Source of the DNA: a virus
Taxonomy: Duplodnaviria > Caudoviricetes
Reading direction: 5' to 3' (one strand)
Length of the DNA: 54,629 nt
IMG/VR virus record: IMGVR_UViG_3300038696_000641
Span: 1-54,629 of that record
The notes under the pieces were generated by a model, which worked only from the letters and a program-made list of their open reading frames with translations, was not told the origin of the DNA and did not search any database. A program made the position numbers and the translations under genes. Below are positions 1,433 to 45,310 of this stretch, one piece after another. Positions within the stretch are counted from its first letter, which is position 1. The number at the start of each line of letters is the position of its first letter.

Positions 1433-1479
1433 CTACATTATGTTGTGGTAATTGTGAACCAAAACACAACATGTGGTAT
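1433..1479. promoter_or_regulatory. tandem NrdR-box-like pair upstream of lysis cassette
   Basis: CTACATTATGTTGTGG (1433-1448) and ACACAACATGTGGTAT (1464-1479), 31 bp apart. Confidence 0.65.
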
Positions 1480-6247: not shown

Positions 6248-6264
6248 AACACATTATGTGGTGT
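6217..6264. promoter_or_regulatory. tandem NrdR-box-like pair upstream of tail fibre/DGR block
   Basis: GCACAACATATTGTGC (6217-6232, near-perfect palindrome) and ACACATTATGTGGTGT (6249-6264), 32 bp apart. Confidence 0.7.
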
Positions 6265-18200: not shown

Positions 18201-21046
18201 TCTAGTGCAGCCCCCTTCCAGTCCCCTTTATAACCAGAAATAACAGGTCCGAATGGGCCTGTTGCGTTGTCTGACGCATTAGATGCACTTGGCGTTTCTG
18301 CCGCAAATTTGTCTGCGCGGTCCTTGCGAATGAACGTCCCGCCCTGAAACGCAAAGCCGCCGGTATCGAACCCGGTAATATCGGCAGGCTTGAACCCTTT
18401 GAGGACATAGCCTTTCAGCTTCTTGCCCTTGCGGGTGGTGTATTCGACCTCGCCTGCTGCAATGGCATCGGCCACCGCCTTGCGCAGCGGGCTGGTTTCT
18501 TGATCAGCGGGAGCGGTTTCGGGCTGATCCGGCGCAACGTCTTGTTCTGGCGGCGTCTCGTTCTTGATCGGTTCTTGATCCGGCGCGGTGTCCGGCTCAA
18601 ATTGTTCATCAAGAGCCTGGCGGATTGCTGCATCAAACGATCCAAACTCCGAGTGCCCGTTCGGGGTTCCGTTTTCGTCAAGGTAAGTCAGGCGGAAGCC
18701 ACCCGGCTTTGACATATCCGGACCCGCGATTGCCCGCTGGCCTGTGCTTGAAGTAAGCCGCACCGGCTTTCCGCTGGCCGATAGTGTTTTTGCAATTTCT
18801 TCCTTACGGGCAATGCTTTCCCTCGCCTTGGCCCGCAAGTCTTGCAATTCACTTGTCGGTGTTTGTTCTTGATCCGGCGCGGCTTCTGCGACCGGTTCGG
18901 GGCTTGGCGGGGTTTGCCCGCCAGTCAGTGTCTCTTCTGGTGCTGCGGCCTCTGGATCGCCTGTAAATGCGTCTTGGGGTCTGCTGGCCTCTAGTGCGGC
19001 TACGTCAACGTCAGGCGCGTCCTGTGCCTGTTGACGGACGCCAATAAACCCGCCGCCAAAGGGCTCGACGGAATAGCCTTCGCCAAGACGGCTTTCAGCA
19101 ACCCGTTGCGTTGGGAAAATGACTGGATCGCCATTATCGTCAGTGAACATGGCTTCATCAATGCGGCTGGCTTCTTCGCTGCGCTGGCGCTCTTGTTCGC
19201 GCGCATTTTCGGCAAGCTCGGCCACGTCATCGCGCGTCTGCGAAAGCGTGCGCTGCAACGTCGCCATATAGGCGTCGTCCGGCGTCATGCCTTCGTCACG
19301 CACCATTGCGTCCACGGTATCCATGAACTCGTCAGGATCAACGCCTTGCGGGATTGGTGGCAGGTTTTCGACTGGCGCTTCTGGCGCTGGCTGTGCGTCT
19401 GGTGTTTCTGGCGCGGCCACATCTGGCTGCTTGGCAAGTGCTGGTGTGACGATCACAACGCCATTGGCAATGTCTGCCAATTCAACGTCGGCATCTGTGC
19501 CGTCCGCCCCGCGGAACTGCGCAAAGCCTGACGCTGGGTCTTCACCCAAAAATGTCGCGTCCATCGGGTCGCTGATTTCGCCCGTCTCTTGGTCAACGAG
19601 CTGGATCTGCACCGGCTGGTCTGCCCGAAACCCACCCAAAAGGGCATCAGGCGCGTCTGCGGCCACATCTGACAGCGGTGAGGGTGTTGCCGGTTGCGTT
19701 GCGTCGCCGGACGGTCCCTGCGGTGACAGCGCGTCACCGGTTGGCGTTGGTGCCCCCTGCGCCCGCTGGGAGGAGGTAGCAGGCATTGGGGGCACCGCAC
19801 CAGAACCCGACGCCGTGCCGGGAGGAACACCAACGTCGCCGGTGCCTGGTTCGTTAAGAAGGTCGATGTTTGTTTCTTGGTCATTACTGTCATCGTCGCC
19901 GTTGCGGTCATTACTGTCATCGTCGCCGTTGCGGTCATTACTGTCATCGTCGCCGTTGCGGTCACGGTATGCCTTGGCACCACCGCCGACACCGCCCAAA
20001 GCACCGCCAAGAAGGCCCGCGGCAACGCCAACTTCAATATACTCTTTCACGGCATCTTCAGTATCGAGCGGAAGGCCAGCCTGCATACGTTCGAGCATTG
20101 ACTGCCCGATTTCAGTTGGCACCTCCATCAAGACGCCTGCCCCAGCGCCCTTTCCAGCCCCAACCAGAACGCGCTTTGTAAGTATACCGCCACCTTCAGC
20201 TGCTATCTTGGCGCCGACCCCCAGGCCTGAAACGGTAATTAAGTCAGTCACAACATCTAAGGCCGCTTGAGGGACAGCGGTAAGCAGGGCGGCTCCTTCA
20301 TTGACTTGAACAGGAGTGCCGGCTTCTTCGGCCACGTCTTTCTGTCGCTCTCGGTTTTGCCCATAAAAGAACGGAAGGTTTACAGCCAGACCGCCAATGG
20401 CTGCGCCTACAGCCGTCCCGACAACTGGGACAACCGAACCAATAGCGCCACCAGCTGCTGCGCCAGCCAACGTCGAACCCATTTGTGGTACTTGCTGACC
20501 GGCCACCTCAGATGCATACCTGCCGAAAGAGCCAAGGCCATCGACGTCATCAAGTCGTGTGAACCCTCGTGACTTCTCTTGTGCTTCGGCTTCGTTTCTA
20601 TCGGCTACCTCGCGACCGTATTCCTCGACCCCATCAAGGCCAAGCATGCCGCCAACGCCCTCCACGGCAGAGCCGTAGCTTTGCTGGATCGTATCGGCCC
20701 CAACGCCAATCGCCTTGCGAAAACCACCTTCCGGCTGCGGTTCTTCTCTTGGCGTGCCATAAATCTGCGCACGAAGGTTTGTGGCATAGTCCCCGAATGC
20801 CCGCCCCTCGTCTTCCCCGAACAACTCTGAGACAATCGCATTTGGGTCTTCACCGGCTTTGAACCGTGGGCCGACTTGCTGTCCGCGCTGGCGAGCAATT
20901 GCCAAAAGCTCTTGTGGCGTCTGCGCCCCTTCAAGCTCGGCGGATGCGTAAAGCACCTCAATCGGCGTCCCTGTTTCAATGGCAATGTCTTCAAGTGCGG
21001 TTTTTGTTGAAACGGGATCAGTACCGAAGATGGGCATATCGCTCAT
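6299..21046 (-). CDS. giant (4915 aa) DarB-like polyvalent internal virion protein
   Basis: Gly-rich hydrophobic N-terminus; BECR-type nuclease-like segment (LVWGKAG..GYGLSKL, ~17900-18250); inorganic pyrophosphatase-like domain (HYGYFKQTEGADGEHVD, FDEHK, ~16870-17290); N6-adenine MTase (LEPTIGSGNF ~15440, NPPF ~15250); SNF2 helicase (VGAGKT ~13100, DEAH ~12605, QREGRIIRQGN ~11280); HEVIH zincin motif (9563-9577); PLxRFG motif (~8360). Confidence 0.9.
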   Translation of the reverse strand: MSDMPIFGTDPVSTKTALEDIAIETGTPIEVLYASAELEGAQTPQELLAIARQRGQQVGPRFKAGEDPNAIVSELFGEDEGRAFGDYATNLRAQIYGTPREEPQPEGGFRKAIGVGADTIQQSYGSAVEGVGGMLGLDGVEEYGREVADRNEAEAQEKSRGFTRLDDVDGLGSFGRYASEVAGQQVPQMGSTLAGAAAGGAIGSVVPVVGTAVGAAIGGLAVNLPFFYGQNRERQKDVAEEAGTPVQVNEGAALLTAVPQAALDVVTDLITVSGLGVGAKIAAEGGGILTKRVLVGAGKGAGAGVLMEVPTEIGQSMLERMQAGLPLDTEDAVKEYIEVGVAAGLLGGALGGVGGGAKAYRDRNGDDDSNDRNGDDDSNDRNGDDDSNDQETNIDLLNEPGTGDVGVPPGTASGSGAVPPMPATSSQRAQGAPTPTGDALSPQGPSGDATQPATPSPLSDVAADAPDALLGGFRADQPVQIQLVDQETGEISDPMDATFLGEDPASGFAQFRGADGTDADVELADIANGVVIVTPALAKQPDVAAPETPDAQPAPEAPVENLPPIPQGVDPDEFMDTVDAMVRDEGMTPDDAYMATLQRTLSQTRDDVAELAENAREQERQRSEEASRIDEAMFTDDNGDPVIFPTQRVAESRLGEGYSVEPFGGGFIGVRQQAQDAPDVDVAALEASRPQDAFTGDPEAAAPEETLTGGQTPPSPEPVAEAAPDQEQTPTSELQDLRAKARESIARKEEIAKTLSASGKPVRLTSSTGQRAIAGPDMSKPGGFRLTYLDENGTPNGHSEFGSFDAAIRQALDEQFEPDTAPDQEPIKNETPPEQDVAPDQPETAPADQETSPLRKAVADAIAAGEVEYTTRKGKKLKGYVLKGFKPADITGFDTGGFAFQGGTFIRKDRADKFAAETPSASNASDNATGPFGPVISGYKGDWKGAALELERRQTGEATGALNHRDVGDISLVWGKAGTRRSDGYGLSKLIAWHPEVLDDLQGRISRMTVTSKTENRIQLESDSDRAGVRLDWDGQSGAWLIGSYDKGAPRLAEKFTGTLSELWGSMAPLPGRGTKRDNNDTGKNQVKDSSGSVDYPNRKLGISKARVDAPVNGIGDSSDLSLGNIALANAKEGDVLPGYGTVLKVTPKQLQVTKLDGAIARLSINSAKLETLARDMGALIASSANLRDEQLGSLIDMIERDPTLTYRDGVPMLFDDPAEQANRGERGGRKRIGQPLTPPAKEDVDAAAADADPNPTDGQKEAGNYQKGHIIWNGMNLTIENAKGSERSGTDQDGETWSVTMPAHYGYFKQTEGADGEHVDFYMGEAPDADYVMWIDQADADSGKFDEHKIMVGFPSRGAALTAYRGAFNDGRADERIGAFFEGSVAQLKAWLESTSDSNFDSTKPVSGNLDFPFKKKAAPEPKPTNETLINVAADSVDKLRSQDVYRVLEAAPADMLDGLTDYIETARPDLLGWIYSARADILQDREKATDQGAEAPAATQTENTSNSPVIADTAPATSGLLSGLSQEKQDRAAELKARLAAKVRNQASSGLDPEYIILGGELVALYIEGGAKKFGQMLRDFAETTGLSMREAQEPMRAAYNHVRDNMDLAGEDISGMDDASAVMAEVRAALAEEQTISQNDTESDTPEAGEADQAANEGPDEQSTNQDGGQREPTGEVTEQGMDGDGQPDSGSDNDGRREDDEDGAGEPAVDDEGGSVGDGPGSSADSTGSAPNGTPQPNYVISDDFALGEGTDGQKLAANMAALRLVFQLESENRYATREEQDVLARWVGWGGLKTLFDEKHKGTNTQWGKAQAELKQLLSGEQYVAAMRSTNDAHYTSRVVVKAMWRAMRNFGFDGGRALEPTIGSGNFLGLQPADLSAKTEWYASELDPITGMIAKNLYPQANVFDGTGFQDAPFRSATFDVAIGNPPFGAEQIGNKKMHPDLGKMKVHNFIIAKTGQLLREGGIMSMVVTSRFLDTPNSDARRGIAPDFNFLGAIRLPNTAFEANANTQVTTDIVFFQKRKAGEGEGDTSWLDTGVEGPNGTRINSYFAANPDMMLGRPAMDGTMYAGGRDPNGKGEFTLHDDGRDMQASLDQAIDSITATLPSREEALEAATTAQDTSSTLADGKMMLDAKGKVLRGRNDGDGSFVEEVTQDTFWQDEAEAKGRLVQEVRALISAKKARSKVSLEDRINIEQRAKNAAVDAGLIDLASEPMPQKAKYEAAMADNLSNLLFAEKPTKEAMSSLETYEKQVNRKRLGSDGFQRLSAMLDLRQKTKELIGLERADAEPQILEGKRRTLRETYRKFKKAHGYLNNSKNEAVLRGDVGTELALEIGYKPAKKGVNDETAKDAPILSKRVIYPHKMPDSVESVADGLHVSMAERGHVDPILIGELSGKSTEDVVKEMTAGQDPMAFKNPKTGRYELAEVYLSGNLAERIKDAESAGMYQNVPHLNKAMPPAKRQDQITPSIRSLWIPKEVFSSFLQALGYPSAKVSIQETVGMASVETGSIGALTEFGQQFATERMDAGRIFEHAIKGKIPVVYDTIRTPEGDRRVKNEEATKEAVAAYERMSKEFPEWAYANPERAGMVIDAFNAKMNVVTERKYEGVRYLRMVGNSPEIDLRNSQKNGAWRMIQDKVTLLHHVVGAGKTFTAIAGIMERKRMGLTRKAVVAVPNHLTGQWGREWLELYPAANILVPTEKDFAPANRSKLINRIATGDYDAVIIGHSQLTKIENDADTSRKYLNEQIEELNAAMQEARASGQSRRSVGQMGSRLNKLTDKLKELNDKLAEKADSSIIGWKDLGVDYLAVDEAHLFKNLEYTTTASRLVGMNPPGGSQRAFDMLMKVRTLQEQQGSGVAFLTGTPISNSLVEIYSMMKYLIPESLKSMGIGSFDAWKAGFIQDESRFEYTASMQLKERNIMSGMINLGPLSQLYRSFSDIVMRPDVERMYTEQMEARNAAQPDPAKQVSTRFPTPKIKGGARRISLAPPTPKMTEFVRYLVMRMAGIKANKSNKDYMSVDNALWVLTDARKASVDIRTIDPTLGREEGSKVDRSSAEVFRIWEENKERKGAQMVFCDMSAPSKAAERDAKRVIKSAYEKLGVKGSDLTARLKQSEGKTYAEIWGDLLGEIENAIDDLDTTTRKRDSLTEFMESEAAQDAAASMFTADTGFSFYDDMRAALIEKGVPEDEIAFIHDYNTTIQKNALFEAVNEGRVRVLLGSTQKMGAGTNAQKKLVALHHIDAPWRPSDMEQREGRIIRQGNEFYQADPDNFEVEIIAYSTEQTADVVQWQVLERKASAIETFMNAATDSIVEEGGDADQYAEFMAQSTGKEIFLQKMQAEKDRDNARAEIASKLRNLSEAKDFMKSYDGRQRVLKERADDYAGFSVDKIGDGADSYLADWDAQAGAYREEKARLEALADEIRERNKGKPRKEQEKLPEMPTAPTRWTDRPSGGWERKVYDVLKDAQENTYSEPKRFNIAMGGGWSVAMMADKQQTGAVRYRSFLMPPNADYEISISDDFSITAKDFRKSDKLLRALSPENIAMRAEAAANRFSKEQNRHAELKPQMQSLLDVGVDRSKVIDAEERLARLSALVRVEEVKFASENAALGENYFAARDDKGRDLIADDTAQPITENIQFKNAGQTYVSDWGAPNGTRRIEGTDKTGRIAIFEAENMDTGEAVIIEAQENATKDDEGNQTSNWSVLNIYDAEAVAQAVAPDRAPAPKDAMEMRLDDDGGANFRASQSKPSTASFQDATQAKRDINKTVRQIEREVGKATGGRIALTLNDEAYNFGKGYESLDGYFLDGVIGVSMAAPDGPLGIARHEVIHALRSKDVFGGENGAFTKQEWRTLVAAARKNKRLRAQVEKFYAGKSEATKIEEIVAEMYREWADGRDTGLTAAERGAMQKLKDILDAIINVLTGNGMNTAASVFERVRSGEVGGRDPDPSGTFDTVNADPADNPALMASISKMWSPKAAKTDAALDKKEASFVSNLLTNAMASSDKNNSLALVPGEVLFRDLGKALPSAAKWVQSMRQMTAERQEMHAEADVLAREWQGHYAKDKENGRKLHDLMHESTIEGMDPSEKFKRPKRPADMTTGKYMNFVEEKRSSHASMQQKFNALPEAMQDIYRKARDSYRAFDEDLINAMVDAVAKAMELQSSRLKARYEGELQQIIEDGLTGAEATQARKKARSRYNQDIKMLEFSRNARIRKMRLTYESNRIDGPYFPLMRFGQFFVAARDAKGKLVHFERASTAGAQQRIASEMQDQGLVVEKGVMKPEDDVSRFVDPNFVADIAEALGEVAMDGQILDAIYQRYLETLPSFSVRKANIHRKGVPGFDRDAIKAFGSRMFHGAHQLTRLRHAMDLTKHVENARREAKNAPDPTRAGAIANEMQKRHDWSMNPTGAQWSAWATSGAFVWYLGLTPAAAVVNLTQTTVVGIPILVAGIKGATVAKASKALTGALADFTAGLSKGDAEWSRGALTSGRLKDDERAALQQAYLSGALDKSESHDLAGIQDGGVQYSPVREKVMRPISFLFHHAERLNREVTFLAAYRMAKNSGMDQEAAVKKAGDLTWDTHFNYENWSRPRFMQDDWTRVAFVFRQFQVNMLYRLFRDTHQAFKGESPEVRKQARTQLIGITSSMMLHAGITGTWGYALTMLLAGMFFDGGSDEAEEELKGAIVGLFGTGAGGMILKGVPGTLTGTDMTARIGMPELWFRSPNRQLEGRDAYYYMVDQLLGAVPAIGLNMLRGVSLVADGEVWRGAELMVPKAIRDQMRSVRYVNEGVTTYKGDPLLDDVSAHDAVVQAIGFSPARVSERYETNRRMMNMQTAIQDERRAILSDITRYMREGEPISKRALRRMQEFNAKYPPTYRIDDDTIMRSYRARLRTSQRMTGGVLLNTNLEDYIRGNMAPMISQ
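19879..19964. repeat. perfect 27-bp tandem repeat x3 inside the giant gene
   Basis: GGTCATTACTGTCATCGTCGCCGTTGC x3 plus GGTCA; encodes (DRNGDDDSN)x3. Confidence 0.95.
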
Positions 21047-21097: not shown

Positions 21098-21144
21098 ATA
21101 CCACATTTAGTCTCTCTTGAAACTACGGACACCACATCTTGTGT
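21098..21144. promoter_or_regulatory. tandem NrdR-box-like pair upstream of the giant gene
   Basis: ATACCACATTTAGTCT (21098-21113) and ACACCACATCTTGTGT (21129-21144), 31 bp apart. Confidence 0.65.
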
Positions 21145-24673: not shown

Positions 24674-25096
24674 TCAGTCCTTTTCGAGCCAGCGGCATTC
24701 GTCCCGGGTCATGCCAAAGCATACACCATCCGTGCCGTCATGGGCACCACATTTTGTGGCTCCCTCAATTCTCCACCCAATATGTAGGCATGCCGTCAGT
24801 GCGCGGATGTTCCAATGCGGGACAACGGTTTTGATCTTCGTCACCCCAAGGTGGTCAAAGGCATAGGCCCCGAGAACCCTCAAGACACCCCGCGTTGCCC
24901 ACCGGCGCCCGCCATTGCTGGCAATGTGGAAGTCGCATGAGTGCGCACACTGGTTGTCAATCGTCACCACGGCCTGCAACCTGCCTTCGACGTCCACAAC
25001 GCCCAATGCGATGCTATCAGCCCGCATGGCGTCCTGACCGTGCCAGATCGCCGCTTGCTGCAAAAGCCCGGCTTGGTGTTCCATCGTTACGCGCAT
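24674..25096 (-). CDS. GNAT-family acetyltransferase-like protein
   Basis: YAFDHLGVTKIKTVVPHWNIRAL..GWRIEG resembles RimJ/RimL-type GNAT; start taken at MRVTME. Confidence 0.7.
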   Translation of the reverse strand: MRVTMEHQAGLLQQAAIWHGQDAMRADSIALGVVDVEGRLQAVVTIDNQCAHSCDFHIASNGGRRWATRGVLRVLGAYAFDHLGVTKIKTVVPHWNIRALTACLHIGWRIEGATKCGAHDGTDGVCFGMTRDECRWLEKD

Positions 25097-30830: not shown

Positions 30831-31922
30831 TTAGACTGGCAGTGCGTATGTATCCAACGCCATCACGCCGAAGTCGCGGTTGTTGAAGCGTGTCTTTTTG
30901 ACACCCATGATGACACCTGCAACAACGGTTGGCTCGTTGTCGTAGTCTTCCATCTCTTCTTTCCACATGTAGCGCATGCCGCCCGGCGTACCGAACGCAA
31001 CCACACCGGCCTGACGGCCAAGGAAGAGCGCGCGTGCTGCGGGCAGGTTTGCACCCGAACCGTAGTCGTTGAAGCGGATCACATGCTCATGCTCGTGCAG
31101 CACGACATTGTTGATCATGCCCATTGTGCCTTTGAAGATAGGCGACTTGCGGCCCTCTGCGGCTGCGGCGGCCTTTTGGAAGTCCAGCCACTTGGAACCG
31201 GCACCGGTACGCATGGTGTGCGCTTGGTACGGCGACATCACGGTGACGAAGTGCTTTTCACCTTCAACGTCGACCGGCATCATGTCGGTGGCGTCTGGGT
31301 CATTGGCACGCATCATCTTAGCGCGTGTGGCGGTCTTTTCGATCAGGTCTGTCGACATGACGTCGGCAGTCGTGACGTTGGCCTTGGCTGTTGCTGTGCC
31401 ACCAAAGATCAGGTGTGCAGCATCAGGTGCTTGCAGCGCGTTGGAAGCAAAGCCCGAGTAATCGGCGGTTTCGATAAACTCTTCGTTGATGCCGCGCGCA
31501 CCGGACAGGTAGATGAAATACATCTCGTCGATGTACTGCGTCCAGTATTCGGCAAGGCGATCCTTGGCGATCTTGCGCATGTCATGCAGCGTGCGCTTGC
31601 GGCTCATGCGGCCACCGGCAGATACAGGGTGACGCATCTGGTCGATCACAACTTCATCAGAGAAGAAGCGCAGGTTTTCTTCCTTGCCCTTCACGCGGGA
31701 ATCGCCAAACGTCGGGCGCTGGCGAAGCTTTACGGACAGGTCGAAGGAAATCCGGTCGCCAGCATCGCTGGCAAGGTCCATCTTTTCTTCGATGATGTTG
31801 TTTTCGCCTTTGCCAACAAACTTCTTGTTGAAGTAGCTGTTGCGGTTGACTTGCGTGGCGAGAGTTGCGCCCCAGCGCTTAACAGCGCGCGGATCACCCC
31901 AGTTCAGGATGGTTTGTGTCAT
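30831..31922 (-). CDS. major capsid protein, N4-gp56/DUF4043-like
   Basis: AGDRISFDLS..L, IDQMRH, RALFLGRQA and GVKKTRFN motifs; start taken at MTQT behind a GAGGA RBS. Confidence 0.88.
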   Translation of the reverse strand: MTQTILNWGDPRAVKRWGATLATQVNRNSYFNKKFVGKGENNIIEEKMDLASDAGDRISFDLSVKLRQRPTFGDSRVKGKEENLRFFSDEVVIDQMRHPVSAGGRMSRKRTLHDMRKIAKDRLAEYWTQYIDEMYFIYLSGARGINEEFIETADYSGFASNALQAPDAAHLIFGGTATAKANVTTADVMSTDLIEKTATRAKMMRANDPDATDMMPVDVEGEKHFVTVMSPYQAHTMRTGAGSKWLDFQKAAAAAEGRKSPIFKGTMGMINNVVLHEHEHVIRFNDYGSGANLPAARALFLGRQAGVVAFGTPGGMRYMWKEEMEDYDNEPTVVAGVIMGVKKTRFNNRDFGVMALDTYALPV

Positions 31923-31990
31923 GGTAGTCCTCATCGACTAAAGAAAACGAGGCGGACTTCCATGCCCTAAGTATCCGGCATCCTGCCGTT
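31923..31990 (-). promoter_or_regulatory. capsid 5' leader with four GGA motifs (candidate CsrA sites)
   Basis: Hairpin CGGC-AGGAT-GCCG (31976-31988), GGA (31974-31976), ATGGA (31959-31963), GAGGA RBS (31928-31932). Confidence 0.55.
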
Positions 31991-32001
31991 AATGCTTATA
32001 T

Positions 32002-32047
32002 ATACCATATCTTGTGTTGGTTTGCCAATATGATCTATATGTTGTGG
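32002..32047. promoter_or_regulatory. tandem NrdR-box-like pair upstream of major capsid
   Basis: ATACCATATCTTGTGT (32002-32017) and GATCTATATGTTGTGG (32032-32047), 30 bp apart. Confidence 0.7.
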
Positions 32048-32048
32048 T

Positions 32049-32213
32049 TTATTTGTCGGGCGCTGCGCTTGGCAGGCGCTCGATGTTCAGGTTGCGCGGC
32101 GCATCGATCGCAATCTTTATGGCGCGACTGTTGCTTGGTTCATCACGAACGATCAGCTTTATGCTGTCGCCAATCATCAAGCTATCGCCTGCTTTCAATT
32201 TGAGTGTCAGCAC
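32049..32213 (-). CDS. csrA: CsrA/RsmA-like protein (54 aa, absent from the ORF track)
   Basis: Manual translation MLTLKLKAGDSLMIGDSIKLIVRDEPSNSRAIKIAIDAPRNLNIERLPSAAPDK; fits the CsrA pattern ML.L....G..LMIGD...I.I.AP....I.R; GTG start with AAGGA RBS. Confidence 0.8.
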   Translation of the reverse strand: MLTLKLKAGDSLMIGDSIKLIVRDEPSNSRAIKIAIDAPRNLNIERLPSAAPDK

Positions 32214-32228
32214 CGCGCAGTATCCTTT

Positions 32229-33236
32229 TTAAACGTCCATGGAAGCGAAGGCTTCGGCTTCTTCTGGTGGCATCTGATCTATGATCCGCTCGTATTCGAA
32301 CGCATCAGCGCTTTTGAGACGCTGGGCCAGTGCCGAGTATTTGCCATCGGACACCGAGGTTTGCTGCGCGGCTGGCACGTTTGCCAATGTGCGCGGCGCT
32401 TTGTCCCCTGCCCGCTTTTTGGGTGCGGGCTTGGGTGCTGGCTTCAGGTCTGCCTTGGCCTCTGCTTTGGGTGCTGTTGCCTTGCTCTTGAGGGCTGGCA
32501 CCTCGATGCCATCGTCCAGTGCATCGGCGGCATAGAGGCGATGGGCCTTTTCCAGCATTTGCTGGTGCGTCTTGTTGGCCATGCGCGGATCTGCGGTCAC
32601 TTCCTCCACAAAGAGGTTGAAGTTGTCCTTGTGCGTTGCGTCTGCAAGCTCTGGATAGGCTTTGAAGTATTCTCCGGCAGTGTTCATGAACGCGGACAGG
32701 ACTTGATCGTTCTGGCGTTCCAGCACGGCTTTTTCGGCAATCAGGTCTTTGCTTTGGTTATCGACCTCTTTGACCTTCGCCATGTATTCCTCACGGGTCA
32801 GGTTGCCTTCTTCCCAGTCATCGAATGCGGCTTCTTTTGCCTTTTCGAGCGTGTCCATTTCAGTATCGAACACCGAAAGGTCCATGATCTGCGTGGATGA
32901 TGCAGGCGCGGCTTTGTCCTGGTCATCTTCGGCTATATCACCGGCACCTTCTTGGGCTTCTTCGGCTCCCTGTGCTTCTTGGGATTGAACTTCACCGGCT
33001 TCATCGGCATCTGGATCATCCCCTTCACCGTTTTCGTCTTCACCGAGCAGGGCTGCGCGCTCTTCATCGCTGAGAAGGCGCATGTCTTCTTCGGTAAATC
33101 CGTCATCGTCATCGGCTCCGTCTTCTGCATTCAGATCAAGCGTGTCCTCGCTTTCGGTTTCTTCACCGTCAGTCTGGTCTTCTGCTTTCACCTGATCGTC
33201 AGTTGTCAGGTCGTCCTTGGTGTCTTCTTCGGCCAT
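32229..33236 (-). CDS. putative scaffolding protein
   Basis: Highly acidic, coiled-coil-like 335-aa protein between portal and capsid. Confidence 0.65.
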   Translation of the reverse strand: MAEEDTKDDLTTDDQVKAEDQTDGEETESEDTLDLNAEDGADDDDGFTEEDMRLLSDEERAALLGEDENGEGDDPDADEAGEVQSQEAQGAEEAQEGAGDIAEDDQDKAAPASSTQIMDLSVFDTEMDTLEKAKEAAFDDWEEGNLTREEYMAKVKEVDNQSKDLIAEKAVLERQNDQVLSAFMNTAGEYFKAYPELADATHKDNFNLFVEEVTADPRMANKTHQQMLEKAHRLYAADALDDGIEVPALKSKATAPKAEAKADLKPAPKPAPKKRAGDKAPRTLANVPAAQQTSVSDGKYSALAQRLKSADAFEYERIIDQMPPEEAEAFASMDV

Positions 33237-33245
33237 GGTGTCCTC

Positions 33246-33440
33246 CTATGGCGTGGGTTGGTGTTTTTGGGTGAACTGGTCGACTGCTTGCGCATGCACC
33301 CATCCGTCGCGCCAGTTGGCGTGATCGCCCGGCCAGTCGTCGGCGTGGAAAGGCGCTGTGCGCTCATGGGGATTGGCAGACGCATCGAGATTGTCCCGAT
33401 ACGCCTGCTGTCCTGCGTGGAATGGCGTCAGGTTATCCAA
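33246..33440 (-). CDS. hypothetical protein
   Basis: 64-aa ORF overlapping the portal stop (NPH...W.DGW). Confidence 0.5.
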   Translation of the reverse strand: MDNLTPFHAGQQAYRDNLDASANPHERTAPFHADDWPGDHANWRDGWVHAQAVDQFTQKHQPTP

Positions 33441-35769
33441 TCGGCATGCCTTCCTGTGGCATTGGCTGCTGTGGTTGGTCCTGTGCCTGCATGGCCTGCT
33501 GTTCCGCTATAGCCTGCTCTTGTGCGGCTATGGCTTGCTCCTCGATCGCCTGCTGTTCTGCGGCTGCGGCTTGTGCGGCTTCGTCCTGCGGTGACAGATA
33601 CCCTGAGCGATTCAGCACGTTGTCCACGACTGGGATCGCGGGCTTGGCGTTGATAATGCTGAGAGCCAGCTCCAAAGCGTCCTTTTGCGTCTTGATGTTG
33701 TCTTGCGGCATGCCTTTGAGAAGCTTTTGCGCCTCGGCCATGGTCTTTTCGGCGCGTGCCTGCTTTTCGGCGGCCTCGCCTTCGACCTTTGCCAGATTTG
33801 CCATGGCTGCACGCTGTTCCATCTCGCCTTGCGCCTGCTTGGCCTGTTCGCGGGCCTCGCGCTCTGGGTCTGGCGTATCGGGATCGGCGTCGGGGTCTTC
33901 CATGCCGGTCATCTGGCGAATGCGGTTTACGACTTCCTCGCCTGCGGGCAGGTCCATCATTTCAACAATGAGGTCGAGCAACACCATGACGATCTGCGGT
34001 GCGACTGGGCCGACCTGCGTGAGAAGCTGCATAAACTGGTCGACGGCTGCTTGGCGCAGGCTGGCGCTCCATGCGTCCTCTGAAATGATGTAGTCTGCCT
34101 TGCTGCGCACAATGTCGTTTTCTGGCAGGCCGTCGTTGACAGTCACGTAGTCAGGCGAACCGCGGCGGTTTGTGATCCGGAAGGTCTTTTCCTCGGTCAT
34201 AAACTGTTCAATGAGGCTGAGGGTCTTTTCGCCGTGTATCTGGCGGGCCAGACGCAAGTTGTCGAACATCTTGGCTGTGGACATGGCACCTTGGCTCTGG
34301 CGCGCCTCGATGGCCTTGCCGCTGGTGGCGTTGGTGGTGCGCCCCATGGCTTCGTCTGTGATGCCTGACAGGGTTTGCACCATCGACATGGACAGGTTCA
34401 TGATATCAAGATGCGCCGATGCTAGTTCGCGGTCGCTGTTGATTTCCAGATGCTTGCCCGGGTTCTTTACGATGATCGCGTCAGCGCGGCCGATTTCTTC
34501 CTCAAACTCGTCCAGATCATCCACGGCGCCCTTGTCCATGATCACCTTGTTGGAGTTGATGATGGATAGAGCCTTGGACAATCGCTTGTTGAGGTCTTTC
34601 TGGGCGCTGATCATGCCGCGAATGATGCCGTATGGCGTGCCGTCTGATGACTTCCGGTATCCCCATAGCGGCGTGAACGGGTATCTGTTGTGGCGGTATG
34701 GGCTGGGTGACAGCCAAAGCACGCCCTTAAGGGTCATGATCATCACGTACATGCGCTGCGTCAGGCGCTTTCGGACTTCGCCAAAGCCGGATGCAACCGA
34801 GGCTTGGTGGCCGATGCTTTCAGGATCAAAGATTTCGCCTGCAAACTCGCCGCCTGCCATGCGGTCTTCCATGACGGGTATCTTGAACCATGCCTCTATC
34901 AACCGCACGCGGTCGCGTGAGAACGATGGGTTATCGATGGTGTGGTATTGCCCGCCAGCAAGGTCGCCAAGCTCTTCAATGCTATCCATGGGATCATCGC
35001 CGTGACGATCACCGAATGCGCCCCACTCAAGGTGGCTTGATGTGCTGGCCTCAACGATGCCTGACCGCTCGGGGAACATGGCGCAGGCAGTATCGACGTC
35101 TACCCACTTTGTGCGAAAGATGAACCGCGCGTCTGACAGGTCCAGTTCCTTGGCTGATGTATCGTAGATGACATTGCGCCAGCTTTCATACCGCTCATAG
35201 ATCGGCTCGCCTTCGCTATCGTCCTGCAATCCGCTTTCAATCCAGCCCAGTCCGACCTTTGCCTGTTCTTCAAACGACCGGCTGATATGAAACTCGGTGC
35301 GGTTGACGTCGGACAGGTACTTGAGAAGCTGGCTCTTGCGTTCGGCACTCTGGCGGGAATCCTTGCTGCGTGGCAGGATTTTGTAATCAACGCGGGTCCG
35401 GCGCTCGGTTCCAAGCACCCAGTTGATGCTTTGCGCGATGACGTTGTAGGTCAACGGCTCTTGCCCGCGCGCTTGCAGGACCGCCATGTCCTCTTGTGAC
35501 CACTGCTCATGGTCGTAGTAGGCTTCATCCTGCTCCATGAGGCGGCGTGACTGGCCCTGTGCGTCCAGCTCGCGCAGATAGTGGCTGATCATGCGCTGGT
35601 GCAGCTCTGTGGCGCGCACGCTGTCCATATCGGACTTCACGGCCTTTTCGACGTCACCCATCAACAACAGGTTTGCCGATGGCACCTTGAAACGGTCTTC
35701 GGGGCGCTGGTTTGGCTTGGTATAGCTGTCAATCTGGCTTGGGATTGCGTCGTTGTATTGATCAGGCAT
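33433..35769 (-). CDS. portal protein (P22-like)
   Basis: YYDHEQWS..RGQEPLTYN, PYGIIRGM..QKDLNKR and long C-terminal helix; follows terL; start 35769 or 35808. Confidence 0.88.
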   Translation of the reverse strand: MPDQYNDAIPSQIDSYTKPNQRPEDRFKVPSANLLLMGDVEKAVKSDMDSVRATELHQRMISHYLRELDAQGQSRRLMEQDEAYYDHEQWSQEDMAVLQARGQEPLTYNVIAQSINWVLGTERRTRVDYKILPRSKDSRQSAERKSQLLKYLSDVNRTEFHISRSFEEQAKVGLGWIESGLQDDSEGEPIYERYESWRNVIYDTSAKELDLSDARFIFRTKWVDVDTACAMFPERSGIVEASTSSHLEWGAFGDRHGDDPMDSIEELGDLAGGQYHTIDNPSFSRDRVRLIEAWFKIPVMEDRMAGGEFAGEIFDPESIGHQASVASGFGEVRKRLTQRMYVMIMTLKGVLWLSPSPYRHNRYPFTPLWGYRKSSDGTPYGIIRGMISAQKDLNKRLSKALSIINSNKVIMDKGAVDDLDEFEEEIGRADAIIVKNPGKHLEINSDRELASAHLDIMNLSMSMVQTLSGITDEAMGRTTNATSGKAIEARQSQGAMSTAKMFDNLRLARQIHGEKTLSLIEQFMTEEKTFRITNRRGSPDYVTVNDGLPENDIVRSKADYIISEDAWSASLRQAAVDQFMQLLTQVGPVAPQIVMVLLDLIVEMMDLPAGEEVVNRIRQMTGMEDPDADPDTPDPEREAREQAKQAQGEMEQRAAMANLAKVEGEAAEKQARAEKTMAEAQKLLKGMPQDNIKTQKDALELALSIINAKPAIPVVDNVLNRSGYLSPQDEAAQAAAAEQQAIEEQAIAAQEQAIAEQQAMQAQDQPQQPMPQEGMPIG

Positions 35770-36238
35770 GGTCTTTGACCTCACGGTGGACTTCTTGTCC
35801 GGTGTCATTGTTGGTGATGATCAGGTCGGCTGCGACTTCCATGCCTTCGCGTGGCATTGGCGGCAGGGCCAGCAATTCGCCCATCAGGTCGCGCACGATG
35901 CTGACGATCTTGATCACGTTCTTGATGTTGTTGGGGTTGAACCCGAGATTGGCGCAGAAGATCGCGGCTGTGATGGCAACGTCACCTTCGTCGCCTGTCT
36001 CTTCGGCCCACCGCCAAGCGTCGTCTTGCAGGATCACGCAAGGCGTGATGCGCTCATGGTTGATCCGGTCCACACGCGGGGTCAGCACCATGCAACGCTG
36101 GCCGGTGAGAAAGTTCCACGTCAGCCAGATCAACACGTCGCCACGCGAATAGACGGCATGGTTCTTGGTCAGGTCGTATGGGGCTCTGTATTCGCTGCCA
36201 CCCGCGTTTGAATGGCCGATTGATTGGTGCTGTGTCAT
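35762..36238 (-). CDS. hypothetical protein between terL and portal
   Basis: ORF coupled to both neighbours; start taken at MTQHQ. Confidence 0.6.
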   Translation of the reverse strand: MTQHQSIGHSNAGGSEYRAPYDLTKNHAVYSRGDVLIWLTWNFLTGQRCMVLTPRVDRINHERITPCVILQDDAWRWAEETGDEGDVAITAAIFCANLGFNPNNIKNVIKIVSIVRDLMGELLALPPMPREGMEVAADLIITNNDTGQEVHREVKDHA

Positions 36239-37839: not shown

Positions 37840-38414
37840 CAGTCGTCGTCTTCCGCCGTCGCAATCGGGGCTGCGCTGCCGCGCTTGGATATCTCCTGAA
37901 TTGCGAGAGCAAGGCGATCAACGACTTCGTTCTTAGACGTGTCGCTCATGCCAAGATATGTGCCCAGCTTCTCAAGTGCCTTGAGCCGGTCCATTGGCTT
38001 GACCTTGACGGTAATGATTTCCTTGTCGGGCTGATTTTGGTCGCCTTTCCCTTTGCCGGGTTCGCGTCGGATGACTGCTGTTGTGTCTTCAAGCAGGTCC
38101 AGTTCTTCCTCGGTGCAGTCGGACAGGTCGATTACAGGAAGACCTTCATCATCCACGCGGATGAATTTGCTCATGCCTGTGAAGGCGATTCGCTCATACT
38201 CCGCAATGACGTCATCGAGTGTCTTAGCCGCTCGCTTCGCCCCTTCTTCGGAAAGCTGCTTAACGCGGGCTATGACCTTTTCATTTCCTTTCAGGCGGGA
38301 TGCGTTGCCATCGTTCTTCTTAAAGCCTGCTTCAACGTATGCGGCGCTGGCAGATAAGCCCAAAGCCATGCCCTGTGCGAACTTTTCATGCTTTGGATTG
38401 GATAGAACGCCCAT
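37839..38414 (-). CDS. terS: terminase small subunit
   Basis: NPKHEKFAQ..AY..AG..NASRL and DRLKALEKLG..LGM motifs; directly upstream of terL. Confidence 0.88.
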   Translation of the reverse strand: MGVLSNPKHEKFAQGMALGLSASAAYVEAGFKKNDGNASRLKGNEKVIARVKQLSEEGAKRAAKTLDDVIAEYERIAFTGMSKFIRVDDEGLPVIDLSDCTEEELDLLEDTTAVIRREPGKGKGDQNQPDKEIITVKVKPMDRLKALEKLGTYLGMSDTSKNEVVDRLALAIQEISKRGSAAPIATAEDDD

Positions 38415-38417
38415 TTT

Positions 38418-38474
38418 ATACCATATCTTGTGTCTGATGCCCGCTTATGGGGTCACATATACAACATATAGTAT
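38418..38474. promoter_or_regulatory. tandem NrdR-box-like pair immediately upstream of terS
   Basis: ATACCATATCTTGTGT (38418-38433, identical to the capsid box) and ATACAACATATAGTAT (38459-38474), 41 bp apart. Confidence 0.7.
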
Positions 38475-44820: not shown

Positions 44821-45310
44821 TTTTCGCCCCTTTAGAAATAAGTCGCGCTTTGGAAGACCCTGTTTTTATCCAGTACCCAACTGTGCCTGAGCCAAGCCCC
44901 AGTGTGCGCTCGGCCTCGTTCTGGCTTTCAAAATACTGACCCAAGACTAGGACCTGGTTCGACTGGCTCGGGCGCTTGAAGGTCTTTCCGTAATTTGCGT
45001 GATTTTCACCCGACGGCATCCTCCCGCGCTCTTTGGCTTCGGCCATATTCTCGGCGTGGGTGCCGGCGCGAAGGTGATCTGGGTTGACGCAGTGCCTAAC
45101 GTCGCAAGAATGAAGGACTTCCATACCGTCTGGGATTGGGCCCTTGTGCAGCTCGTAAGACAGTCGGTGTGCGGATACCGCCTTGCCGAAAACCTTCAAC
45201 CAGCCATACCCATTTGGGTATTTGGCTCCTTCCCAAACCCAACAGCCTGTGTCGGGGCATTCAGTATAGCCCCTCATGAAACGTAAATATGGAGCCTCTC
45301 TTGCAGCCAT
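44813..45310 (-). CDS. HNH endonuclease
   Basis: CWVWEG..GYG..AHRLSYE..VLHSCD..CVNPDHL..GT..EN. Confidence 0.9.
   Translation of the reverse strand: MAAREAPYLRFMRGYTECPDTGCWVWEGAKYPNGYGWLKVFGKAVSAHRLSYELHKGPIPDGMEVLHSCDVRHCVNPDHLRAGTHAENMAEAKERGRMPSGENHANYGKTFKRPSQSNQVLVLGQYFESQNEAERTLGLGSGTVGYWIKTGSSKARLISKGAKNA

What the first reader, a model, noticed from the sequence alone, without database searches (positions are those of the whole stretch)
31923..32213. csrA-like gene directly upstream of a capsid leader rich in CsrA-type sites
Seen: a 54-aa CsrA-like ORF (32049-32213) missing from the ORF track, retaining LMIGD, AP and the Arg equivalent to E. coli R44. The capsid leader just downstream has a CGGC-AGGAU-GCCG hairpin (CAGGAUG core), two more GGA motifs and a GAGGA RBS. 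Established: CsrA dimers bind GGA in hairpin loops and at the RBS to control translation; csrA is generally absent from alphaproteobacterial chromosomes, and csrA-like genes have been noted in Bcep22-like phages. Inference: a self-contained phage translational switch that sets capsid timing or stoichiometry, stacked on the NrdR-like boxes in the same intergenic region.
Basis: partly seen in the sequence, partly recalled or inferred. Interest (0 to 1): 0.75.

Follow-up and report, generated by a model that had tools for sequence, protein, structure and literature searches.

The report
Phage CsrA gene and capsid-leader switch
A prophage carries a small CsrA-type RNA-binding protein gene just ahead of its capsid gene, and the capsid message starts with conserved hairpins that can instead pair with and hide the capsid start site, which looks like a built-in translational switch.

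Summary
Window 32213-32049 (-) encodes a 54-aa CsrA-family protein (Pfam PF02599, 40.5 bits against a cut-off of 27).

The gene is not new. The same slot is annotated "CsrA-like regulator" in Bcep22. It lies next to the capsid gene in 96 of 130 dereplicated relatives.

GGA count alone is not significant: 4 observed against 2.2 expected, P=0.09.

What seems new is the leader.
- A second hairpin, GGGC-AUGGAA-GUCC (31967-31954), belongs to a motif (mostly GCGC-ANGA(N)-GUGC) found about 50 nt upstream of the capsid ATG in 98 of 130 relatives. That is about 250 times the background density.
- Its loop and 3' arm are complementary to the SD/AUG region, and this pairing co-varies between lineages.
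- The window's minimum-energy fold buries SD and AUG.
- The host order lacks csrA: found in 1 of 121 genomes, and that one is the prophage copy.

Best reading (0.45): the phage CsrA-like protein binds these hairpins and controls capsid translation, more likely by opening the start site. Binding, transcription start and direction of the effect are untested. Only 50 of 109 hairpin loops contain GGA.

The parts
33433..35808 (-). Portal gene, first gene of the head module shown here
   Evidence: PF16510 P22_portal E=3.2e-183
32229..33236 (-). Acidic 335-aa protein, scaffold-like by position and composition (inferred). Its stop lies 15 nt before the csrA-like start
   Evidence: ORF list; phrog_8246, unknown function, E=3.7e-26; no Pfam match
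32049..32213 (-). CsrA-family gene, 54 aa, GTG start, AAGGA about 9 nt upstream
   Evidence: PF02599 40.5 bits, cut-off 27; same slot in relatives
32023..32028 (-). TTGGCA, -35-like hexamer (read by eye)
   Evidence: Conserved in the window and in L014, L019, L010, L098 and L020. The consensus scan tool reported no promoter here
31999..32015 (-). Box ACAAGATATGGTAT (32015-32002) overlapping an extended -10-like TGgTATATA (32007-31999)
   Evidence: Box repeated 9 times in the window against 0.93 expected. -10 read by eye; GGTAT is invariant in 8 close sequences
31976..31988 (-). Hairpin 1, CGGC-AGGAU-GCCG, with GGA in the loop. Would lie within a few nt of the predicted 5' end
   Evidence: Folds in the MFE structure, loop P(unpaired) about 1. 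Stem 96% paired, and GGA kept in the loop in all 7 distinct rows
31954..31967 (-). Hairpin 2, GGGC-AUGGAA-GUCC: the window's version of the family-wide leader motif. It resembles the CsrA SELEX consensus (CA..GGA..GU, 4-bp stem, 6-nt loop)
   Evidence: Invariant core in the clade. Family motif in 98 of 130 leaders. SELEX consensus from PMC7652899 (passage read)
31948..31964 (-). Anti-start strand CAUGGAAGUCCGCCUCG (overlaps the loop and 3' arm of hairpin 2)
   Evidence: Pairs with 31936-31920 in the MFE, -24.3 kcal/mol against -19.2 for the local-hairpin fold. Duplex energy -17.7 against -10.7 for non-cognate start regions
31920..31936 (-). Capsid translation start region CGAUGAGGACUACCAUG (SD GAGGA 31932-31928, AUG 31922-31920)
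   Evidence: P(unpaired) near 0 for GGAC and AUG. 86% of cells paired in 7 distinct close sequences against 24-50% when partners are slid
30831..31922 (-). Major capsid protein gene
   Evidence: PF13252 E=1.2e-65; 61% identical to the Bcep22 major capsid protein

Best explanation
The ORF is a genuine, diverged CsrA-family RNA-binding protein. It is a core gene of the head module of Bcep22-like phages (portal, scaffold-like gene, csrA-like gene, capsid), not a casual passenger.

The capsid mRNA has its own promoter-like element and a leader that can fold in two ways. In one fold, short local hairpins display GGA (family-wide: A-N-G-A) in their loops. In the other, more stable fold, the loop and 3' arm of hairpin 2 pair with the Shine-Dalgarno-to-AUG stretch and close the start site.

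I propose that the phage CsrA-like dimer binds the hairpin loops. In this window these are hairpin 1 and hairpin 2, whose GGAs lie 22 nt apart. Binding would hold the leader in the open form, so the capsid protein is translated efficiently only once the late operon that also makes portal and scaffold has produced the regulator.

Shown: family membership, synteny, motif conservation, complementarity and its co-variation, and the predicted occlusion.
Inferred: that the protein binds this RNA, that the element acts as RNA, the transcription start, and the sign (activation about 60:40 over repression).
For: 1. Family membership. Pfam CsrA 40.5 bits. 75 of 96 phage homologues hit PF02599 on their own. 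Their profile hits RsmE 2jpp at E=2.6e-13 and CsrA 1y00 at 4.2e-11. Basic residue at position 7 in 80 of 96, R/K33 in 72 of 96.

2. Core-gene behaviour.
- A CsrA-like ORF lies no more than 260 nt upstream of the capsid gene in 96 of 130 leader-dereplicated loci, down to 44% capsid identity and across alpha-, beta-, gamma- and deltaproteobacterial records.
- Of the 23 loci with none within 2.5 kb, 14 have one elsewhere in the record or genome, 2 of these adjacent but weak.

3. Leader motif.
- 98 matches in 98 of 130 loci within -75..-25 of the capsid ATG: 14.8 per kb against 0.059 per kb elsewhere.
- Stem variants include changes on both sides: GCGC/GUGC 82, GGGC/GUCC 9, ACGC/GUGU 2, CCGC/GUGG 1.

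4. Switch.
- Cognate hairpin-to-start duplex -15.5 against -10.6 kcal/mol for non-cognate partners (Wilcoxon p=2e-16), -8.0 shuffled.
- 54 of 109 loci have at least 7 contiguous pairs, against a mean of 20 (maximum 28) in 50 partner permutations, in 39 distinct helix sequences.
- Start-region accessibility 0.27 against 0.45 with the upstream part shuffled, p=1e-16.
- Window MFE buries SD and AUG.
- Paralogous copies within phage POI1126 show a compensatory C-G to U-A change.

5. CsrA-site likeness. Short stem of 4 bp or fewer, CA..G(G)A..GU frame, 4-6 nt loop, compared with the SELEX consensus RUACARGGAUGU (PMC7652899, passage). Hairpin-to-SD spacing is 21-38 nt, inside the 10-63 nt bridging range given in the same passage.

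6. No host CsrA or sponge is expected. PF02599 hit 1 of 121 genomes of the order, and that is the prophage copy. In 5 related host genomes the only hits are next to the capsid gene.

7. Precedents for CsrA opening a closed start site: ymdA (PMC7492729, abstract) and phz2 (PMC3933668, abstract).
Against: - No binding, expression or transcription-start data exist.
- The first G of GGA, which was 100% conserved in the CsrA SELEX ligands, is free in the family motif. Only 50 of 109 loops have GGA.
- GGA is only modestly enriched in leaders (z=3.5, rank 8 of 64 trinucleotides). The window's count is not significant (P=0.09).
- R46, the R44 equivalent, is Arg in only 41 of 96 homologues in the MAFFT columns, with a further 29 having Arg one column earlier.
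- Three genomes have the hairpin but no detectable CsrA-like gene: L130, L136, L137.
- G-U against A-C mismatches in the long helix (75 against 57, p=0.07) do not settle RNA-level against DNA-level selection.
- My hairpin finder required pairing and an A-start loop, so its 109 of 130 is partly circular. The sequence-only pattern is the fairer count.
- Loci are dereplicated by leader similarity only, so lineages are not independent.
- Within the close clade there is no co-variation at all.
- Published ideas differ: moron, possible virion component, host or CRISPR manipulation (PMC9144972, PMC8450108).
- I could not read Gill et al. 2011 or any supplements. These may already discuss the gene's position.
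Confidence: 0.45

Rival explanations
1. The CsrA-like protein works mainly on host transcripts (takeover or lysogenic conversion, as the literature proposes). The capsid-leader switch is served by something else. Adjacency to the capsid gene reflects operon history only.
For: - Published readings: 'moron' in JC1 (PMC9144972, passages); manipulation of host processes including CRISPR-Cas (PMC8450108, passages; PMC11879866).
- In a host without CsrA, any GGA-rich host leader would be exposed to it.
- The family motif often lacks GGA.
- In the Rhizobiales clade and in POI1126 the gene is not next to the capsid gene.
Against: - A moron is usually patchy and self-contained. This gene sits 15 nt after the scaffold-like gene's stop and keeps its slot in 96 of 130 lineages, down to 44% capsid identity.
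- It is only 16-60% identical among the phages, so the recruitment is old.
- Where it has moved, it stays with portal and scaffold, and in three of the loci examined (L175, L183, L185) a motif copy follows it within 25-51 nt.
Confidence: 0.2
2. The leader is a protein-free device. The weak 5' hairpin forms first during transcription and keeps the start open only on young transcripts, after which the stable closed fold takes over. The same fold could also act as a thermometer or stabiliser. The CsrA-like protein plays no part in it.
For: - The local hairpin is weak (4 bp, one of them G-U) and the closed fold is about 5 kcal/mol more stable in the window.
- The motif and the pairing persist in 3 genomes with no detectable CsrA-like gene.
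- Kinetic control of this kind is known for the phage MS2 maturation gene (recalled, not checked here).
Against: - It does not explain the sequence conservation of loop positions (C6 and A7 in 108 of 108; G9 and G13 at 90% or more).
- It does not explain a GGA kept in the hairpin-1 loop while the other loop letters and the register change.
- It does not explain the near-universal co-occurrence with the CsrA-like gene.
Confidence: 0.17
3. The motif acts as DNA: an oriented operator or promoter-proximal site for a late transcription factor just downstream of the -10 element. The complementarity with the start region reflects a second, inverted half-site.
For: - In POI1126 all 5 copies lie about 10-20 nt after a TATAGT-like hexamer.
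- G-U is not significantly favoured over A-C.
- In 6 loci the reverse complement of the start region itself matches the motif pattern.
Against: - In loci with a csrA-capsid gap of only 42-57 nt the motif keeps its distance to the ATG, not to any promoter.
- The partner always covers SD-to-AUG, which is a translational landmark.
- All copies are on the coding strand: 5 forward, 0 reverse and 0 control matches in POI1126.
- The local stem shows compensatory changes.
Confidence: 0.08
4. The protein is a structural or assembly component of the head that merely keeps a CsrA-like fold.
For: - It lies between the scaffold-like and capsid genes.
- One unique peptide was found in JC1 virions (PMC9144972, passage).
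- A CsrA-like gene is embedded among structural genes in Bacillus phage Dartukuta.
Against: - The JC1 authors themselves call the single peptide inconclusive.
- Basic residues of the RNA-binding face are kept.
- A 54-aa protein has no known role in P22-type heads (my knowledge).
Confidence: 0.05

Closest known systems
CsrA-like regulator of Bcep22-like phages (Bcep22 gp54; 'carbon storage regulator' of JC1, DC1, GP4 and many Ralstonia phages)
   Same: Same family, same size class, and same slot between the scaffold-like gene and the major capsid gene. The capsids are 61% identical. The Bcep22 leader also has the hairpin, GCGCAGGAUGUGC, which is complementary to GCACAUCC just before its AUG.
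   Different: - The window protein is only about 31% identical to the close Bcep22 relatives L104 and L092.
- Its host is a Rhodobacterales bacterium.
- Its leader has two GGA hairpins and a 6-nt loop version of the motif.
- In the papers I could read, the gene is called a moron or host regulator. No link to the capsid leader is made (searches; Gill 2011 not held).
CsrA activation of ymdA (E. coli) and RsmA activation of phz2 (P. aeruginosa)
   Same: Two upstream sites in a leader whose default fold blocks ribosome binding, and binding destabilises that fold (PMC7492729 abstract; PMC3933668 abstract). The window shows this arrangement: GGA loops upstream and a closed SD/AUG.
   Different: Those are single host genes under a global regulator that is titrated by sRNAs. 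Here regulator and target are neighbours on a phage, in a host without Csr. The leader design is conserved across a whole phage family. Nothing has been tested experimentally.
CsrA protection of the flhDC 5' end from RNase E
   Same: Two sites at the extreme 5' end of the transcript (PMC7652899, passage). Hairpin 1 would lie a few nt from the predicted start.
   Different: The transcription start is not mapped here. Protection alone would not explain the complementarity to the start site.
Classical CsrA repression (glgC type): upstream hairpin plus SD site bridged by one dimer
   Same: Hairpin loop site plus GGA in the SD. Spacing is 31 nt from hairpin 2 and 53 nt from hairpin 1, within the 10-63 nt range.
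   Different: The start site is already predicted closed without any protein, so a repressor would add little. This is why I rank repression below activation.
Phage translational regulators such as T4 RegA or the MS2 coat protein (recalled, not checked here)
   Same: A small phage-encoded RNA-binding protein acting on phage start regions or hairpins to time or balance late protein synthesis.
   Different: Unrelated folds, and those are repressors. Neither uses a CsrA-family protein.

Membership tests
CsrA/RsmA family (Pfam PF02599) | Sequence match above the curated family threshold | tested here: met
   40.5 bits against a cut-off of 27, E=2.6e-10, residues 1-46 on model positions 1-44 of 53. 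Whole-record search 34 bits, over the cut-off.
CsrA/RsmA family (Pfam PF02599) | Key RNA-binding residues L4 and R44 (E. coli numbering; PMC7652899 passage) | tested here: met
   The window has L4, and R46 in the VxIxR context after AP (alignment by eye and profile alignment). Across 96 phage homologues: L/I/V at position 4 in 73, Arg at column 46 in 41 and at column 45 in 29.
CsrA/RsmA family (Pfam PF02599) | Strand-swapped homodimer forming two RNA-binding faces | not testable with these tools
Needs a size measurement or a solved structure.
CsrA/RsmA family (Pfam PF02599) | Specific binding to GGA in hairpin loops | not testable with these tools
   Needs a gel shift or footprint. Candidate sites are listed under parts.
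CsrA/RsmA family (Pfam PF02599) | C-terminal alpha-helix after beta-5 | tested here: inconclusive
   Only 8 residues (LPSAAPDK) follow R46, so a helix is unlikely. A 49-residue truncated CsrA chain exists in the PDB (5z38_E), so the helix may not be required. No fold was made.
CsrA-opened, start-sequestering leader (ymdA / phz2 type) | Default fold occludes SD and/or AUG | tested here: met
   Prediction only. Window MFE -24.3 kcal/mol with GGAC and AUG paired. Family accessibility 0.27 against 0.45 in controls.
CsrA-opened, start-sequestering leader (ymdA / phz2 type) | Regulator sites lie on the strand that masks the start site | tested here: met
   The GGA of hairpin 2 (31961-31959) lies inside the anti-start strand 31964-31948. 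Family-wide, the loop and 3' arm are the pairing partner.
CsrA-opened, start-sequestering leader (ymdA / phz2 type) | Protein binding shifts the fold and raises translation | not testable with these tools
   Needs toeprinting, structure probing or reporter assays.
Rfam families | Match of the leader to a curated RNA family | tested here: not met
   No relevant match in window 31700-32300 at E up to 10. None in 12 related loci at gathering score; only two tRNAs were found.

The most novel reading that the evidence does not exclude
The CsrA-like protein of Bcep22-like phages is a dedicated late-gene translational activator, and the leader hairpin motif is its recognition site. Together they form a portable post-transcriptional late switch that works without any host Csr system. 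It would cover a small regulon in some phages (capsid, virion proteins, the giant DarB-like protein and lysis genes in POI1126). It may use a relaxed A-N-G-A specificity that has drifted from the canonical GGA.
Probability: 0.3. Interest if true: 0.85.

Novelty: new variant of a known kind. Interest (0 to 1): 0.65.

Why it matters
- Phage-borne csrA genes have been catalogued for years and called morons or host-manipulation tools. One 2025 paper states that their role in the phage life cycle had not been tested before it (PMC11879866, passage).
- The comparative evidence here points to a concrete and cheap-to-test alternative: the gene is a core part of the head module and sits beside a conserved RNA switch on the capsid message.
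- If that is right, it gives a function to a widespread phage gene family.
- It would also be a natural example of CsrA-type activation with the regulator and target encoded side by side.
- It would show how CsrA specificity can drift from GGA to A-N-G-A.
- It would supply a compact protein-RNA part for controlling translation in hosts that lack Csr.
- If the protein turns out not to bind, the leader switch itself is still an undescribed, family-wide control element on the most abundant phage protein.

Tried and rejected
- tblastn of the 54-aa protein against the phage collection found nothing. The capsid protein and a relative's CsrA-like protein did find relatives.
- The consensus promoter/terminator scan found no promoter in 31700-32500 and one terminator-like site that lies inside the scaffold-like gene. 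The promoter in my model is read by eye and supported only by conservation.
- Rfam: nothing relevant.
- Dimer prediction for two copies of the protein with alignment A2: no verdict, score 0.31 against a mark of 0.42. This counts neither for nor against.
- Sequencing runs: one DNA holder, which may be the source sample, and no RNA holder listed. Transcript ends therefore could not be examined, and read laying was not used.
- GGA count as a statistic: not significant for the window, modest for the family.
- G-U against A-C test for RNA-level selection: 75 against 57, p=0.07, not decisive.
- Second upstream GGA-loop hairpin as a family-wide trait: 9 of 109 against 6.4 expected, rejected. The relaxed version gave 25 against 14.1. 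It is clade-specific (window clade; L150, L153, L154, L156, L168).
- Other near-matches to hairpin 2 in the window (35833-35846 before the portal gene; 45115-45128): both lie in coding sequence (MEV codons) and I dropped them.
- Co-variation within the close clade: none, because the pairs never vary.
- The MAFFT alignment of 108 leaders (A4) puts the window clade's 3' arm and the start regions out of register. I therefore did not run pair counts on it and used anchored scripts instead.
- Bcep22's second motif copy lies inside the DarB-like gene and may be chance.
- Whether phage PTXU04, whose csrA knock-down gives small plaques, belongs to this capsid family could not be established.
Gill et al. 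2011 is not held. Supplements are closed, so the phage lists of PMC7366521 and PMC8450108 were not seen.
Full report
**What is there**

The window is a 54.6-kb provirus record. The region of the finding is read on the minus strand. The gene order is:
- portal, 35808-33433 (PF16510, E=3e-183);
- an acidic 335-aa scaffold-like protein, 33236-32229;
- a 54-aa ORF, 32213-32049;
- a 126-nt gap;
- the major capsid gene, 31922-30831 (PF13252, E=1e-65).

The short ORF starts with GTG, 15 nt after the preceding stop. It scores 40.5 bits on Pfam CsrA, against a curated cut-off of 27.
- the CGGC-AGGAU-GCCG hairpin at 31988-31976;
- further GGA motifs at 31976-74 and 31961-59;
- GAGGA at 31932-28.

**Is it more than chance?**

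By count, no. Four GGA in 70 nt compare with 2.2 expected (P=0.09). By conservation, yes.

In the six distinct closest relatives (capsid 85-88% identical, from Yoonia-type contigs and viral contigs) the stem GGC/GCC is fixed. The 5-nt loop reads AGGAU, UGGAU, UAGGA, UGGGA or UGGAA, so it always contains GGA, in two registers. The GGA at 31976-74 is not conserved.

**The gene is a core gene of a large phage family**

- The capsid is 61% identical to that of Burkholderia phage Bcep22, where the gene directly upstream of the capsid gene is annotated "CsrA-like regulator".
- I fetched 171 related loci, which with the window's own locus makes 172, located the capsid start in each and searched for CsrA-like ORFs with an iterated profile.
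- 130 of the 159 loci with at least 500 nt of upstream sequence have one.
- After removing near-identical leaders, 130 loci remain: 96 have the gene within 260 nt of the capsid start, 8 further away, 23 not within 2.5 kb, and 3 cannot be judged.
- A whole-record search of those 23 found a CsrA-like gene in 14. Two are adjacent but weak, and the rest lie 3-38 kb away or on another contig. Two of the 23 are short fragments. Seven have none.
- Of 96 aligned homologues, 75 hit Pfam CsrA individually. Their profile finds RsmE (2jpp, E=2.6e-13) and CsrA (1y00, E=4e-11).
- They are only 16-60% identical to the window protein.
- The gene keeps its slot down to 44% capsid identity, in records labelled as alpha-, beta-, gamma- and deltaproteobacteria.

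This is not how a moron behaves.

**The host lacks csrA**

In five Rhodobacterales genomes that carry such prophages, the only Pfam CsrA hits are the copies next to the capsid gene. In a sample of 121 genomes of that order, only 1 has a hit, and that is the prophage copy itself.

**The leader holds a family-wide motif**

Downstream of hairpin 1 lies GGGC-AUGGAA-GUCC (31967-31954). Its core is invariant in the close clade. In more distant relatives it appears mostly as GCGC-A-N-G-A-(N)-GUGC.

- A sequence-only pattern finds it in 98 of 130 loci within -75..-25 of the capsid ATG: 14.8 per kb against 0.059 per kb elsewhere in the loci.
- A stricter finder, which requires a 4-bp stem and is therefore partly circular, finds it in 109 of 130. 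Stems are GCGC/GUGC in 82, GGGC/GUCC in 9, GCGC/GCGC in 7, GUGC/GCGC in 4, with rarer ACGC/GUGU and CCGC/GUGG. Several of these are changes on both sides.
- Loops contain GGA in 50, UGA in about 38 and AGA in about 20 of 109. C never occupies that position.
- The form resembles the CsrA SELEX consensus RUACARGGAUGU: a stem of 4 bp or fewer, the CA..G(G)A..GU frame, and a 4-6 nt loop. In that consensus ACA and GGA were invariant, hairpins mostly had four or fewer pairs, and loops mostly had six bases (PMC7652899, passage).
- The window clade, with GCAUGGA(A/U)GU, is closest to the consensus.
- No Rfam family matches. The motif strings occur in no relevant paper.

**The motif is one arm of a switch**

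- In the window the minimum-energy fold keeps hairpin 1 but pairs CAUGG.AGUCC.G.CUC (31964-31949) with GAG.G.GGACU.CCAUG (31934-31920), burying the SD and the AUG. This fold is -24.3 kcal/mol, against -19.2 for the fold with the local hairpin 2.
- The same logic holds across the family with different letters. Examples: GGAUGUGC/GCACAUCC (Bcep22), GGAGUGCUCC/GGAGCACUCC, CAUGACGUG/CACGUCAUG, CAUGAUGU/ACAUCAUG, GGAGCUGCCU/GGGUAGCUCC.
- Cognate duplexes average -15.5 kcal/mol. Hairpins matched with other phages' start regions average -10.6 (p=2e-16). Shuffled hairpins give -8.0, and an equally long upstream segment gives -5.8.
- 54 of 109 loci have at least 7 contiguous pairs, against 20 on average (maximum 28) in 50 permutations. 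These fall into 39 distinct helix sequences.
- Predicted accessibility of -13..+3 is 0.27, against 0.45 when the upstream part is shuffled. 67 of 109 loci are below 0.3, against none of the controls.
- The 3' arm GUGC can pair either with GCGC (locally, through a G-U pair) or with GCAC in the start region. The two folds therefore exclude each other.
- Whether selection acts on RNA rather than DNA is not settled by the mismatch spectrum: G-U 75, A-C 57, p=0.07.
- Three things favour RNA: strand specificity, the fixed distance to the ATG even where the csrA-capsid gap is only 42-57 nt, and the fact that the partner is the start site.

**More than one target in some phages**

- Ochrobactrum phage POI1126 has five copies, all on the coding strand (control pattern: 0). 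Each lies 20-45 nt before a late gene: capsid gp10, virion protein gp21, gp26, the 14.5-kb gp30 and gp32. Each follows a TATAGT-like hexamer.
- The gp26 copy reads CAUGAUGUG, with GCAUCAUG at its likely start. The capsid copy reads CAUGACGUG with CACGUCAUG. This is a compensatory change within one genome.
- Itty13 has a second copy 30 nt before a peptidoglycan-binding (lysis) gene.
- In the window itself I found only the capsid copy. Other near-matches lie in coding sequence.

**How it most likely works**

The capsid protein is the most abundant virion protein, yet its start site is predicted to be closed by default. This calls for an opener.

The neighbouring gene encodes a dimeric RNA-binding family whose sites are short hairpins with G(G)A loops. 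The window offers two such loops 22 nt apart. The family-wide distance from the loop to the SD is 21-38 nt. Both spacings fall within the 10-63 nt bridging range.

I therefore propose that the protein binds the loops and holds the anti-start strand in its local hairpin. This would license capsid translation once the operon that also makes portal and scaffold has been expressed. CsrA does this at ymdA, and RsmA does it at phz2 (abstracts read).

Repression, by bridging a hairpin to the SD, remains possible. I weight activation 60:40. Every step from "binds" onward is inference.

**What argues against it**

- GGA is not required in the family motif.
- The equivalent of R44 is not uniformly Arg.
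- Three genomes keep the hairpin without a detectable gene.
- Lineages are not independent.
- There are no transcript data.

**Literature**

- Phage csrA genes are catalogued in PMC7366521 (passages).
- The gene is called a moron, with one virion peptide, in JC1 (PMC9144972, passages).
- It is proposed to manipulate host immunity in PMC8450108 (passages).
- In phage PTXU04, knock-down reduces plaque size, and the authors say the role "has not been previously tested" (PMC11879866, passages).
- I found no statement linking the gene to the capsid leader. Gill et al. 2011 and all supplements could not be read.

**Verdict**

The gene is a new member of a known phage CsrA-like family. The conserved capsid-leader switch, and its proposed coupling to that protein, appear undescribed and can be tested directly.

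Noticed in passing
window 1466-1479(+), 6251-6264(+), 21098-21111(-), 21129-21142(-), 24744-24757(-), 32002-32015(-), 38418-38431(-), 38459-38474(both): A box ACAANATRTGGTAT occurs 9 times against 0.93 expected, with none of 100 shuffles reaching 9. By eye it comes mostly as two boxes roughly 30-40 nt apart, overlapping -10-like elements ahead of the giant gene, a tail-region gene, the capsid gene and the terminase region. They look like a phage-wide promoter or operator element. The binding protein was not examined.
   Followed up: partly
window 6299-21046 (-): A single 4915-aa ORF. By size and position it resembles the DarB-like giant protein of Bcep22 (gp75) and gp30 of POI1126. Its leader begins GGGGC, which can pair with GCCCC between its AUGAGG ribosome-binding site and its AUG. 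That is a similar 5'-end-to-start-region design without the hairpin motif.
   Followed up: no
window 38414-38431 (-): The ATG of the 191-aa ORF 38414-37839 lies 3 nt after a -10-like box (…ATATGGTATaaaATG). This suggests a leaderless or nearly leaderless message, or a wrongly called start.
   Followed up: no
L105, L109, L110, L115, L118, L122, L123, L128, L130 (about 120-128 nt upstream of the capsid ATG, opposite strand); L175-L186: In a clade of prophages, mostly in Rhizobiales-labelled records (L105 is labelled Stakelama), an inverted copy of the motif heads a divergent leader upstream of the capsid gene. In seven of these records (L109, L110, L115, L118, L122, L123, L128) a CsrA-like gene lies about 28-38 kb away on the other strand, and where examined (L175) it follows portal and scaffold-like genes. 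In three of these loci a motif copy lies 25-51 nt after csrA with no evident gene behind it. This suggests a rearrangement with breakpoints in the leader.
   Followed up: partly
L003 / L189 (phage POI1126) 5920-6114 and 6500-7000: POI1126 gp06, annotated 'hypothetical protein', is CsrA-like (E=1.1e-11 with the phage profile). Two tRNA genes and three small reverse-strand genes separate it from the capsid gene.
   Followed up: partly
L150, L153, L154, L156, L168 capsid leaders: These gammaproteobacterial-type prophages carry two hairpins in tandem, each with an A-N-G-A loop, about 25-45 nt apart. This is an independent parallel to the two-hairpin leader of the window clade.
   Followed up: partly
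L193 (Bacillus phage vB_BspP_Dartukuta) 1792-1986: A CsrA-like gene about 52% identical (over 40 aa) to one of this family (L167) sits among structural genes of a phage recorded on Bacillus. It overlaps both neighbouring genes and has no leader.
   Followed up: no
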